From contig NW_018407390.1 of assembly GCF_002113885.1 (NCBI RefSeq), positions 2,725,587 through 2,789,586 of the forward strand: DNA of 64,000 bases. The letters are read 5' to 3'. Shown piece by piece: positions 15,001 to 18,000 of the stretch. The position numbers were made by a program. This DNA is from Mizuhopecten yessoensis (lineage: Eukaryota). Within the stretch, counting starts at the first letter, position 1; every line of letters starts with the position of its first letter.

Positions 15001-18000
15001 CCATATGTAATACAGCCAAATGTAACAAAGCCACATGCTTTCGTTTAGATATATAATTGGGATTGGACCTCTACATTGCTCTCTATATTAAGAACACAAG
15101 TTGTATTTTCCATAAAGTGTCTCTCGAGTCAGTCCCTATGTAGCTAACTTGAAAATCAAATAAGATCGGAGAAGATATCTTGTTATTCACAAACACAAAA
15201 ATAAAAGCAAAATGTTGCATACAATTGATGCTGACATTCACTCTCTTAATTACTACTATTATGCAACCAGTAAAAGACGTTCACAAGAAAAAACGAAACC
15301 TTGCAAGACTTCTCGATTACTAAGAGGTATTTAAAAGTCATAGGTCATTAACTTCAGTGTGGAATATGGCTATAATTTCTCCTTTAATGATTTCTTCAAA
15401 TGATGTTTTACTATTTACGATATGAACGAGTTTTACATTAACAATATAAGGTTATACAAATTAGGGTTTTAAGACAAGGTACAGAACATGTTGAGATTTA
15501 CAATGCCAACCATTCGAAAGCATAATATAAACAGCTTCTTAGATTTGAAGTCGATTTGGTTTAACGGCATGTCCTAACTTGTTCGTCTCAAATATCCCTT
15601 TTAGTGAACCATTAACCCTTCGACTTATTATTAGTTCTATCGCCATTTTACCACCATTATGAACACATTTTGTCAATTTATTCAGTCCTGTTTGCCCAGA
15701 TATATAGCGAGGTCCTAATGTTGAGTCGGAGTCACCTGAGAAAAACCACGTGGTCGGACAGGTGACTCTCTACTTATTTTCATTTACTGTAAAATCACGT
15801 TAAAGACTAAGTTATATTTATCAATTAATTGTTTGATATTTTGAAAGTTTTAACCAACGGTACGTATACTGAAACTGTATTCATCTTACCTTTTAAGGAA
15901 ATTCAGTGACACAATCCGATATTGATATGGAAAACCAACACAAAGTGACAATTCACAGTATGTGTACGATTTAAGTAATTTTGATGAAAAAAGAGATTTG
16001 TCAGTGCTGCAAATAGGGATGCAATAGTGATGCCAGGAATTTACAAAACAAGCCAAACTGACAACGAAAGGAAAATTTAAAAAATTAAACAAGCACAAGC
16101 TGCCATTAAGATGAAAATAAAATACTCATAGAATAAAGATGGAGGTAGAATATGTGACGAAAGTAATACCCCTCACAACAAAATATAGATAAATTCAATA
16201 TTATTAGAAAAAAATGACATTTTCTTACCTTCAAAAAAATATGAGTCATCTGGCAGAGAGTCTGTGAATAAGTCTATTTGTTTGCTGGGGTAACAGTGCG
16301 CAATAGTAGAGAGTATTACCACCACCACCGCCACGTACGAACACACGTATATGTTTGGCTGCATCCTTTTTCTGTCAACGTTTTCAGAATAGTGTCACTC
16401 AGGTCCAAAGTTTATCAAACAGTCTACAATCCCAATGTAAGTTGTTGCCAATGATACTAACGTGAGCCTGTATAGGAAATATGTTTTTCTGTTTAAACGT
16501 TTTAACTGTGCTATCTCAAAAACTTCATTTCATAGAGATGGTATGTCACTTTTATAGATCTATTTACAACTGTCAATAAAGGAGTGATCGTTTGGAAAGA
16601 GACTTGTCAACTGGTCAGATGAAGTTGAAATGTACGCTAATATAGCATTTATATATGCATGTGTGTATACAAACACTGTCGCGGAGCCTAGTCAATAATT
16701 CAGCGTACTAACCACACACGCGCGTGTAGGTTTCATTATTGCGACAGACCAGTAAGAATCAGATTTCACAGTCGAAATACGGGGGCGCTTTCAAGTGCAA
16801 ATTATCTTTGGTTTTCAATGAAACTCGTTACGTACATAATCTAGCAGTCACGTGACTTATTTCCTTCCCACGGAATATAGTCTACAGCCATTGGACAGGT
16901 ACGTAGCGGACAGATTGGATTGAAGCAAAATTGGGTTGCCAAGCTGTAACACGAAATGTCAATTATACTAATTTGTTTACGCTTATTTGTGTGGCTTTCT
17001 ACTTGATCCCTGGACTCTTTGCTCTTTTACAAGCGCCCGGAGAATACTGATCATTGTCCCTCGGGTGATCTGTTTCATTCTGTCGCTACCATAGCTGCCT
17101 ACTCGTATGCCTACCACTGGACATTTACAGTCGCCAGGGAGCAAGCTGCAAACAGCGATTCTAGTAAATTACATTAAATGAGGGAGCCATGCACGACAAA
17201 TAACACACAACCATCCCGGAAGGCGATTTGTTAAAGTAGCTAGAGGGATCAGTTTTACTACACTCTCCGAATAGATATAAAACTTGAAACAGACTCCTAT
17301 GAGATGAACCACACCATAATCAGTAGGCTACAAACAGTACTAGATGTCGTTATTACACTCGCAGAGAGCAGACTGTTTGAATCCCCAGACGGCTGATTTC
17401 TTACTTACATACTTACAAGTACAACCATATAAGAAGAATCACAGATGTCAACTAGCAACTACACAAATGTACTTAAATCCACAGTGTCATATATACTTAT
17501 TACGGATGAACAATTGATATTTATACGAATCTACCAATACAACCCTATCTGTTAAACTACAGACGCATTGAATAAAATAACACTTTCCGGACAAAAGCAT
17601 TCCCCATGAAACATATTTGAAGCCAAATAACTTTGGTTTAAACATATTTTAGGTGGAATATTTATTTCTTAGGGATAGGAACCAATAGAAAACCCCAGAA
17701 ACGTACTTTTCATTAAACTGTATTTACCGTCAACTTAATTTTATTAATAGAAAAATCTGGCGGAGTAGTTTGACGTTCATGGAGATATATTCCTAATGAC
17801 AAACATTGTTATCCAGATATAAAAATACGTAAGATATATTTCGAAAAGTGATTAGGTATTTTTTCATCTTTTGGGTATTAGATAATAAGTAGTTAAAGTA
17901 AGATAGCTTATAGTTGATGTCTGGCAATATGTTTGGTACTCCAAAATAATCACATAAATGTTTTTATCTAATTTAAGACCTAACAATGAAGTTGTGATTT

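What the first reader, a model, noticed from the sequence alone, without database searches (positions are those of the whole stretch)
16229..16467. Second signal-peptide exon with the same design: possible secreted-peptide gene cluster
Seen: 30 kb downstream on the same strand, a 136-nt coding exon has a signal peptide, a Tyr at the predicted +1 position, an acidic spacer and a phase-1 GTAAG donor, like the exon at 51340. There is no obvious sequence identity between them. I tried the visible minus-strand acceptors from 16228 to 1 and found no convincing KR/amide exon, so the rest probably lies beyond the window start or was missed. Inference: two tandem prohormone-like genes, either old paralogues or co-located hormones.
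Basis: partly seen in the sequence, partly recalled or inferred. Interest (0 to 1): 0.65.

Follow-up and report, generated by a model that had tools for sequence, protein, structure and literature searches.

The report
Probable signal-peptide first exon, product unknown
This looks like the real first coding exon of a small secreted-protein gene with its own promoter, but the rest of the gene was not found, so calling it a hormone gene is still a guess.

Summary
On the minus strand an ATG at 16364 opens a 136-nt coding stretch. It encodes a hydrophobic leader and a 21-residue acidic stretch, and ends at a phase-1 AAG|GTAAGA donor (16229|16228).

It is more than chance. A TATAAAAG box lies 192 nt upstream. 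It is one of only two on that strand in 64 kb, and the other lies 164 nt upstream of the 51340 exon. The leader has no ATG, position -3 is a purine, and GC falls from 43% to 26% at the donor. Simulations expect 0.01 such configurations per window.

The neighbour at 51340 is well supported as a two-exon amidated-peptide precursor. Its exon 2 (46639..46521) is the only acceptor-plus-ORF ending in Gly-basic-basic-stop in the whole window.

For the 16364 exon I found no downstream exon in the remaining 16 kb. It matched no Pfam family, solved structure or Atlas cluster, and it shows no similarity to the neighbour.

The "shared design" is partly trivial. Any phase-1 G|GTRAG donor reads Gly-Lys/Arg if left unspliced, so the unspliced 63-residue ORF mimics an amidation site (Gly-Lys-Lys).

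Verdict: probably a real signal-peptide first exon (about 0.8). Prohormone identity is plausible but unproven, and paralogy is unsupported.

The parts
16549..16556 (-). TATAAAAG box, 192 nt upstream of the ATG.
   Evidence: 5 matches in the window on both strands (5.8 expected). Only 2 are on the minus strand, this one and 51497-51504 upstream of the 51340 exon.
16365..16525 (-). Predicted 5' untranslated leader. The start near 16525 is inferred from TATA +30.
   Evidence: there is no ATG from 16525 to 16365, and one ATG at 16528-16526 at the expected start site. Only 6.3% of random 167-nt segments of the window lack ATG. The ATG context is AAAAGGATGC, with A at -3.
16293..16364 (-). Codons 1-24, the signal-peptide-like leader. 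The first charged residue is Lys28.
   Evidence: the best 12-residue window has a mean Kyte-Doolittle value of 2.99. The -3/-1 rule allows cleavage after Ala22 or Cys24. The n-region has no basic residue. Six residues of the core come from a GTG/GGT run.
16230..16292 (-). Codons 25-45, a 21-residue acidic stretch (YPSKQIDLFTDSLPDDSYFFE). It is either the start of a pro-region or, if unspliced, the peptide itself.
   Evidence: There are no Pfam, PDB or Atlas matches.
16224..16229 (-). Phase-1 splice donor G|GTAAG. The same bases read Gly-Lys if not spliced.
   Evidence: AAG|GTAAGA matches 8 of 9 positions of MAG|GTRAGT. Sites with at least 8 of 9 matches number 26 on the minus strand and 15 on the plus strand. 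GC is 43% in the coding part, 26% in the next 150 nt and 15% in the first 60 nt.
16173..16228 (-). Read-through continuation. With base 16229 it reads Gly-Lys-Lys, then 15 hydrophobic residues and TGA at 16175-16173. It is intron under the best reading and coding tail under the intronless rival.
   Evidence: The tail has a composition typical of random AT-rich translation (-0.38 bits per residue).
15539..15735 (-). Best but weak candidate for exon 2. It follows the acceptor tggtttttctcag| in phase 1 and has a 65-codon ORF to a stop at 15541-15539. Not claimed.
   Evidence: It has no dibasic or amidation site and no Pfam or Atlas match. Its GC is 38% against 31% and 29% in the flanks. A minus-strand AATAAA at 15682-15677 lies inside it.
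51497..51504 (-). Neighbour gene: TATAAAAG box, 164 nt upstream of its ATG.
51241..51340 (-). Neighbour gene: coding part of exon 1 (100 nt, phase 1, donor AAG|GTAGGT).
   Evidence: The 139-nt leader has no ATG.
46521..46639 (-). Neighbour gene: exon 2. It follows the acceptor ttatttattccag| in phase 1. It holds a Lys-Arg site, a 31-residue peptide, then Gly-Arg-Lys and a TAA stop.
   Evidence: it is the only such exon-like ORF in the window on either strand, against 0.05 expected per 64-kb strand. AATAAA lies 322 nt downstream at 46199-46194.

Best explanation
The stretch 16229-16364 (minus strand) is the genuine first coding exon of a small gene for a secreted peptide or protein. The steps below are marked as shown or inferred.

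- Transcription starts about 30 nt downstream of the TATAAAAG box at 16556-16549 (inferred).
- A leader of about 160 nt without ATG brings the ribosome to the ATG at 16364 (the sequence features are shown; their use is inferred).
- Residues 1-22 or 1-24 act as a cleavable signal peptide (inferred from hydrophobicity and the -3/-1 rule).
- The next 21 acidic residues begin a pro-region (inferred).
- The transcript is spliced at AAG|GTAAGA in phase 1 to one or more exons. These either carry no recognisable hallmark or lie beyond the window start, more than 16 kb away (inferred).

The leading guess for the product is a small peptide precursor like its neighbour at 51340. That neighbour is a two-exon precursor with a Lys-Arg site and a C-terminal Gly-Arg-Lys. 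I put about 0.8 on 'real first coding exon' and 0.4 on the whole statement, including 'spliced small peptide precursor'.
For: - The full configuration is expected 0.01 times per window by chance and is seen once, here. It comprises a signal-like ORF, a GTRAG donor after the cleavage site, a TATA box, an ATG-free leader and a purine at -3 (300 simulations).
- TATAAAAG occurs twice on this strand in 64 kb, both times 164-192 nt upstream of the two signal-peptide ATGs.
- The donor matches 8 of 9 consensus positions.
- GC drops from 43% to 26% at the donor. The neighbour shows the same pattern: 45% to 31% at its exon 1, and 28% to 45% across its exon 2 acceptor.
- An in-frame stop upstream fixes the start codon.
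- The neighbour's exon 2 is unique in the window, with 0.05 expected per strand. So a small peptide gene with the same promoter type and the same exon-1 layout does exist 35 kb away.
- No Pfam family was found in any of 148 minus-strand ORFs of at least 30 aa in 263-16394 (E<=1). None was found in 51 plus-strand ORFs of at least 45 aa in 829-16462 (E<=0.001). This argues against a large enzyme-like product encoded nearby.
- Phase-1 introns are over-represented near signal-peptide cleavage sites (abstract of PMC1626468, seen in the listing).
Against: - No second exon could be identified in 16 kb. The best candidate (15735-15539) has no distinguishing feature.
- The n-region has no Lys or Arg. 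The uncharged N-terminus is 27 residues long, so it could be a membrane anchor rather than a cleaved signal.
- Part of the hydrophobic core is a GTG/GGT microsatellite.
- No homologue evidence of any kind was obtained. There are no expression data.
- The simulations use a simple Markov model and home-made signal-peptide criteria.
- Similarity to the neighbour is nil at protein level.
Confidence: 0.4

Rival explanations
1. The exon is a real first coding exon, but of an unrelated larger secreted or membrane protein. The hydrophobic N-terminus would be a signal peptide or signal anchor. The remaining exons would lie beyond the window or be too short or too novel to recognise. The likeness to the neighbour would then only be the common layout of secretory genes.
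For: - It shares the promoter, leader and donor evidence of the best explanation.
- A phase-1 intron after a signal peptide is a general property of secretory genes (abstract of PMC1626468).
- The stretch of about 18 hydrophobic residues with no basic n-region would also fit a membrane anchor.
- No peptide-type exon follows within 16 kb.
Against: - No Pfam-detectable exon lies on the minus strand anywhere in 263-52268.
- TATA-driven compact genes next to a peptide gene suggest a small product.
- The stretch after the leader is acidic and free of Cys, like a pro-region.
Confidence: 0.22
2. The gene is intronless in its coding part. The ORF 16364-16176 (63 residues) would be the whole precursor: a signal peptide, a 21-residue peptide, Gly-Lys-Lys (amidation and cleavage signal) and a 15-residue tail. 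The 'GTAAG donor' would simply be the codons GGT AAG. The product would be a 21-residue acidic peptide ending in Glu-amide.
For: - Read through, the exon continues Gly-Lys-Lys exactly after the acidic stretch.
- The neighbour's exon 1 read through ends Gly-Arg-stop.
- This would explain why no exon 2 is found.
- A 63-residue precursor with the layout signal, peptide, Gly-dibasic, tail resembles compact precursors such as adipokinetic hormone (recalled).
- A minus-strand AATAAA lies about 490 nt after the stop, at 15682-15677.
Against: - Of 21 GGTRAG sites in the window, 4 are followed by a Lys/Arg codon and 6 by a stop. So about half of such donors mimic an amidation site by chance.
- The donor matches 8 of 9 consensus positions, including the three exon bases.
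- The putative tail is 15% GC over its first 60 nt and has the composition of random AT-rich translation.
- The neighbour with the same layout is clearly spliced, and its unspliced ORF would be only 35 residues.
- Glu-amide is a rare C-terminus (recalled).
Confidence: 0.12
3. This is not a coding exon. It would be a chance ORF with a Val-rich stretch from a GTG repeat, lying near a chance TATA-like word and a chance donor-like GGTAAG. At most it would be part of a non-coding transcript.
For: - Signal-like ORFs with a GTRAG donor arise 1.2-1.4 times per window by chance.
- No homologue, family or downstream exon was found.
- The composition score of the exon peptide is not protein-like (-0.11 bits per residue). 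That score also failed to pick out the known coding exons.
- Shared promoter words are only borderline.
Against: - The full configuration is expected 0.01 times per window.
- The exact TATAAAAG word is shared with a well-supported gene, and these are the only two copies on the strand.
- There is a sharp GC step at the donor.
Confidence: 0.2

Closest known systems
The neighbouring two-exon peptide precursor gene in this window (exon 1 at 51340-51241, exon 2 at 46639-46521)
   Same: - Same strand.
- An identical TATAAAAG word 164 nt (neighbour) and 192 nt (this exon) upstream of the ATG.
- An ATG-free leader and A at -3.
- Exon 1 is a hydrophobic leader plus a short stretch ending at a phase-1 AAG|GTRAG donor.
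- A similar exon/intron GC contrast.
   Different: - No sequence similarity.
- The neighbour has a recognisable exon 2 with Lys-Arg and Gly-Arg-Lys-stop 4.6 kb downstream. Nothing comparable follows the 16364 exon in 16 kb.
- The neighbour's leader has a basic n-region (Lys3) and this one has none.
Neuropeptide Y / neuropeptide F family
   Same: The four residues after Cys24 (Tyr-Pro-Ser-Lys) are the N-terminus of vertebrate NPY as I recall it, and in that family the peptide follows the signal peptide directly. In annelids NPY/F genes are reported in tandem, but in oysters they lie on different scaffolds (PMC4200219, section 13 read).
   Different: - No Pfam family at E<=10 and no PDB sequence match at E<=10.
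- No minus-strand ORF in the window with Arg-Phe/Tyr-Gly followed by a basic residue.
- The intron here follows residue 21 of the putative peptide. The family's conserved intron lies in the Arg codon of the C-terminal RF/Y-amide (PMC4200219, section 13).
- Molluscan NPF as printed in PMC5996578 (section 26) has no resemblance beyond its length class.
Compact amidated-peptide precursors (signal, peptide, Gly-dibasic, associated peptide), for example the adipokinetic hormone type (recalled)
   Same: The unspliced 63-residue ORF has exactly this layout.
   Different: The Gly-Lys codons coincide with a consensus splice donor. The tail looks non-coding. There is no family signature and no sequence match.
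The general class of secretory genes with a phase-1 intron near the signal-peptide cleavage site
   Same: A phase-1 donor lies 21 codons after the predicted cleavage site. The over-representation of such introns is stated in the abstract of PMC1626468.
   Different: This is a structural regularity, not a family. It says nothing about the product.

Membership tests
Neuropeptide / prohormone precursor (generic) | N-terminal cleavable signal peptide. | tested here: inconclusive
   The hydrophobic core scores 2.99 and there are two sites allowed by the -3/-1 rule. However, the n-region has no basic residue, the uncharged stretch is 27 residues long, and no dedicated predictor was available.
Neuropeptide / prohormone precursor (generic) | Mono- or dibasic cleavage sites flanking a peptide, often with Gly for amidation. 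| tested here: inconclusive
   There is none within the exon. Gly-Lys-Lys appears only if the donor is read through, and about half of such donors in the window give this look by chance (10 of 21). No downstream exon with such sites was found.
Neuropeptide / prohormone precursor (generic) | Conserved orthologues, or a mature peptide detected by mass spectrometry. | not testable with these tools
Supplementary precursor lists of PMC4200219 and PMC5996578 were closed. Exact-substring searches of paper texts found nothing relevant.
Neuropeptide / prohormone precursor (generic) | Expression in neurons or endocrine cells. | not testable with these tools
   No expression data were available.
NPY/NPF family | A peptide of 36-40 residues with a C-terminal RxRF/Y-amide followed by Gly and basic residues. 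| tested here: not met
   No such motif exists in any minus-strand frame of the window. The Arg-Tyr-Gly at 5308 is followed by Asn-Val-Phe, and its frame is closed from the nearest acceptor.
NPY/NPF family | An intron within the Arg codon of the C-terminal RF/Y-amide. | tested here: not met
   The intron here follows codon 45, which is residue 21 after Cys24. The family feature is taken from PMC4200219, section 13.
NPY/NPF family | A profile match to the pancreatic-hormone fold family. | tested here: not met
   Pfam gave 0 families at E<=10 for the 45-residue exon and the 63-residue read-through ORF. A PDB phmmer search gave 0 matches at E<=10.
Paralogue of the 51340 gene | Detectable sequence similarity in coding or flanking DNA. 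| tested here: not met
   BLASTP gave no alignment at E<=100. A tblastn with the neighbour's exon 2 found only itself and short chance words. blastn found nothing between the loci. The 5' flanks share a colinear chain of 5 short words with P=0.029. That is borderline and fits shared regulation as well as ancestry.

The most novel reading that the evidence does not exclude
The Gly-Lys/Arg codons at the end of both first exons would do double duty as splice donor and as amidation-cleavage signal. Splicing would give a longer precursor, as in the neighbour's 31-residue amidated peptide from exon 2. Intron retention would give a short precursor whose peptide ends right at the donor. For this gene that is a 21-residue Glu-amide peptide with an NPY-like Tyr-Pro-Ser-Lys start. 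For the neighbour it is a short peptide ending Pro-Arg-Gln-amide. The locus would then hold two orphan peptide-hormone genes whose output is switched by splicing choice.
Probability: 0.07. Interest if true: 0.65.

Novelty: new member of a known kind. Interest (0 to 1): 0.3.

Why it matters
If transcript data confirm it, this locus adds one or two orphan secreted-peptide genes to the host's repertoire. One of them, the neighbour, has a clear amidated 31-residue product with no family assignment in any search I could run. Orphan peptide genes are routinely missed by annotation pipelines because their exons are tiny.

The case also carries a methodological lesson. A phase-1 consensus donor and a Gly-Lys/Arg amidation site are the same bases, so sequence alone cannot separate 'signal exon with an intron' from 'complete mini-precursor'.

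On its own, the exon is an ordinary-looking secretory first exon.

Tried and rejected
1. Downstream exon search. I ran phase-1 acceptor scans of 16190..3 at several stringencies and a ranking by GC contrast. I also ran motif scans for Gly-basic-basic, Arg-Phe/Tyr/Trp-Gly and Gly-basic-stop in all minus-strand frames, and a window-wide search for terminal-exon-like ORFs. Nothing convincing turned up.
   - Candidates at 15735, 12389, 11201, 9837, 8798/8780 and 3777 were looked at and not adopted.
   - The candidate at 10053 lies in a repeat (9980-10142 resembles 40825-40658).

2. NPY-type exon. The Arg-Tyr-Gly at 5308 was inspected. Its frame is closed by stops from the nearest acceptor, so it was rejected.

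3. Paralogous exon 2. A tblastn with the neighbour's exon 2 against the window found only itself.

4. Amino-acid composition score, proteome against random translation of the window (the proteome frequencies were recalled approximations). It did not separate the known coding exons from noise, so I used it only to describe the read-through tail.

5. Family and homology searches, all exon by exon:
   - Pfam on 148 + 119 + 6 + 143 + 109 ORFs. The only hits below the cut-off of each call were RVT_1 (56979-58430, minus), a weak Cmr2_hel_dom1 match on one of the same two ORFs, a weak RecR_ZnF match (E 0.0071, 37101-37220, minus) and RPC82 HTH_9 (63519-63734, plus). At E<=1, one search also listed 16 matches at E 0.0049-0.24, all far below their cut-offs, on 13 of its 148 ORFs.
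   - ESM Atlas on the 45-residue exon and on the 64-residue candidate: no usable hit.
   - PDB phmmer: 0 matches.
   - Genome contigs (bacteria and archaea) with the 63-residue ORF: 599 pattern matches, none confirmed.
   - Rfam: 0 matches. tRNA: 0.

6. Promoter similarity. Shared words of at least 9 nt gave P=0.056 and a colinear chain gave P=0.029. This is borderline and is not used as evidence of paralogy.

7. Joined exon models were not searched, folded or typed. The combined exon 1 + exon 2 proteins of either gene therefore remain unsearched.

8. Not done because closed: the search for homologous proteins, the search of protein representatives, metagenome and viral contig collections, and paper supplements.

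9. The taxon of the window was not established.
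Full report
**What is there**

On the minus strand an ATG at 16364-16362 opens a 136-nt coding stretch that ends at 16229. It is followed by GTAAG at 16228-16224.
- The 45 complete codons read MQPNIYVCSYVAVVVVILSTIAHCYPSKQIDLFTDSLPDDSYFFE. The 46th codon is split after its first base, so the donor is in phase 1.
- An in-frame stop at 16397-16395 makes this ATG the first possible start.
- The first charged residue is Lys28.
- The -3/-1 rule allows cleavage after Ala22 or after Cys24. 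Tyr at +1 is therefore one of two readings.
- The next 21 residues are acidic (4 Asp, 1 Glu, 1 Lys).

The one slip is the distance to the other exon (ATG 51340), which is 35 kb rather than 30 kb.

**Is it more than chance?**

A home-made scan looked for an ATG, a 12-residue uncharged window with mean hydropathy of at least 2.0, a -3/-1 site and a GTRAG donor inside the ORF. It found 2 hits in the whole window on both strands, one of them this exon. Second-order Markov simulations give 1.2-1.4 such hits per window. That alone is not significant. The context is.

- **TATA box.** TATAAAAG occurs 5 times in the window on both strands and only twice on the minus strand. The two copies are at 16556-16549, 192 nt upstream of this ATG, and at 51504-51497, 164 nt upstream of the other signal-peptide ATG.
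- **Leader.** From 16525, the expected start 30 nt after the TATA box, to 16365 there is no ATG. Only 6.3% of random 167-nt segments of the window lack ATG. The other gene's 139-nt leader also has none, against 8.6% for random segments of that length.
- **Start context.** Position -3 is A in both genes.
- **Donor.** It matches 8 of 9 positions of MAG|GTRAGT. Sites that good number 26 on the minus strand and 15 on the plus strand.
- **GC step.** GC is 43% in the coding part and 26% in the next 150 nt, with 15% in the first 60 nt. The neighbour shows the same exon/intron contrast.

Requiring all of these (TATA, ATG-free leader, purine at -3), the simulations give 0.01 configurations per window (3 in 300). 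One is observed. I take the exon as real with probability about 0.8.

**The neighbour**

Downstream of the 51340 exon (100 nt of coding sequence, donor AAG|GTAGGT at 51241|51240) there is a strong acceptor (ttatttattccag|) at 46641-46640.
- The exon that follows is in the right phase. After the split codon it encodes MNKRQDLNDLFSRIMAMYGYGSNINSPLYMRFGAAGRK and a TAA stop.
- That is a Lys-Arg site, a 31-residue peptide, and Gly-Arg-Lys.
- An AATAAA lies 322 nt further on.
- A window-wide search looked for a Y-AG acceptor with a pyrimidine tract, an ORF of at least 20 codons and a Gly-basic-basic-stop ending. It returned this exon and nothing else on either strand. Simulations give 0.05 per 64-kb strand over all three frames.

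So the neighbour is a well-supported two-exon precursor of an amidated peptide. It matched no Pfam family and no PDB sequence. I did not search or fold the joined two-exon protein. All searches were exon by exon, so the joined models remain unsearched.

**The rest of this gene**

I found nothing comparable for the 16364 exon.
- Phase-1 acceptor scans from 16190 to 3 at several stringencies gave no exon with a processing-site design. Neither did a GC-contrast ranking or motif scans in all minus-strand frames.
- The best acceptor-plus-ORF is at 15735 (tggtttttctcag|, 65 codons, stop at 15541-15539, intron of 493 nt). It has no dibasic site and no family or Atlas match. It also contains an AATAAA. 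I do not claim it.
- A tblastn with the neighbour's exon 2 finds no second copy.
- The only Pfam-detectable content of the whole window is two reverse-transcriptase fragments (56979-58430, minus) and the RPC82 helix-turn-helix exon (63519-63734, plus). No enzyme-like exon follows within reach.

The second exon is therefore either unrecognisable or more than 16 kb away, beyond the window start.

Read without splicing, the exon continues Gly-Lys-Lys, then 15 residues and a stop at 16175-16173. This gives a 63-residue ORF with the classic layout of signal, peptide, amidation/cleavage signal and tail. The neighbour's exon 1 read through ends Gly-Arg-stop.

The reason is mechanical. A phase-1 consensus donor G|GTAAG or G|GTAGG is the codon pair GGT AAG or GGT AGG. 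Among the 21 GGTRAG sites of the window, 4 are followed by a Lys/Arg codon and 6 by a stop. About half of such donors therefore look like amidation sites by chance.

Four things speak against the intronless reading:
- the three exon-side consensus bases of the donor;
- the 15% GC and random-like composition of the tail;
- the neighbour being spliced;
- the neighbour's unspliced ORF being only 35 residues.

What speaks for it is the missing exon 2. I keep it as a rival at 0.12, and as the core of the most novel reading.

**Relationship of the two genes**

There is no protein or DNA similarity.

The 5' flanks share short words found nowhere else in the window. TCTGACCAGTT has 2 exact copies, both in these flanks. 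CACGCGCGT has 3 matches, all in these flanks, against 0.06 expected. Five shared words are colinear. Against random pairs of window segments, however, this gives only P=0.056 and P=0.029. That is borderline and hints at shared regulation. It is not evidence of paralogy.

**Comparison with known families**

The Tyr-Pro-Ser-Lys start equals the N-terminus of vertebrate NPY as I recall it. The family's defining features fail:
- no profile or PDB match;
- no RF/Y-Gly-basic exon;
- an intron in the wrong place, judged by the description of NPY/F genes in PMC4200219 (section 13, read in full).

In PMC5996578 and PMC4200219 I saw only passages found by term search, plus that one section. Their supplementary precursor lists were closed and might hold an orthologue. 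Exact-substring searches of the paper library with 11 peptide words gave no relevant hit. The statement that phase-1 introns cluster near signal-peptide cleavage sites comes from the abstract of PMC1626468, seen in the listing.

**Unchecked**

- No eukaryotic genome collection was on hand. Orthologues, synteny and expression are all untested.
- The window's taxon was not established.

**Verdict**

The exon is probably a real, TATA-driven signal-peptide first exon. Its product is unknown. A small peptide precursor is the leading guess (0.4 for the full statement). The rivals are an unrelated larger secretory or membrane protein (0.22), a chance ORF (0.2) and an intronless mini-precursor (0.12). 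Interest is modest at 0.3. The better-supported orphan peptide gene is the neighbour.

Noticed in passing
window 51504-46194, minus strand: The neighbour is a complete-looking two-exon gene. It has a TATA box at 51504-51497, exon 1 coding sequence at 51340-51241, exon 2 at 46639-46521 and AATAAA at 46199-46194. It would give a 31-residue amidated peptide after a Lys-Arg site, and no family match was found. The last codons also form a possible donor (AA|GTAAGG), so a third exon is not excluded.
   Followed up: partly
window 16609-16619, 16717-16726, 51569-51577 and 51704-51714: Rare words are shared only by the two 5' flanks. TCTGACCAGTT has 2 of 2 exact copies there. CACGCGCGT has 3 of 3 matches there against 0.06 expected, and is palindromic at 16717-16726. 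The colinear chain test gives P=0.029. These may be common regulatory sites.
   Followed up: partly
window 25443-28427, 35098-36468, 38066-43110, 49277-49798, 60091-60576 and 1-344: Six satellite arrays with units of 24, 21, 25/50, 48, 60 and 62 nt. The 25-nt family switches orientation around 41076-41284, next to the window's single N at 41179. The 48-nt array lies in the neighbour gene's intron and is open in several frames.
   Followed up: no
window 56979-59173 (minus) and 19822-20919 (plus): Retrotransposon remains. RVT_1 hits at 57876-58430 (E 1e-18) and 56979-57872 are split by a frame break. A 366-residue ORF at 19822-20919 has no Pfam hit.
   Followed up: partly
window 63519-63734, plus strand: An exon encoding the RPC82 helix-turn-helix domain of RNA polymerase III subunit C3 (Pfam HTH_9, E 4.8e-09). 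It is divergent from the 51340 gene.
   Followed up: yes
window 9980-10142 and 40658-40825: A dispersed repeat of about 165 nt (70% identity, opposite orientation) next to the 25-nt satellite. It covers a tempting phase-1 ORF at 10053, which was discarded for that reason.
   Followed up: yes
window 16306-16330 and 12140-12190: The Val-rich core of the signal peptide is encoded by a GTG/GGT run. Its 12-mer GGTGGTGGTAAT recurs, in opposite orientation, in a 20-nt tandem repeat inside the longest minus-strand ORF of the region (12028-12393, 122 codons, no Pfam hit).
   Followed up: partly
window 16848-16855 and 16646-16653, minus strand: Further upstream of the exon lie a palindromic E-box (TCACGTGA) and a second TATA-like word (TATATAAA, about 290 nt before the ATG). 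An alternative, more distal start site is possible.
   Followed up: no
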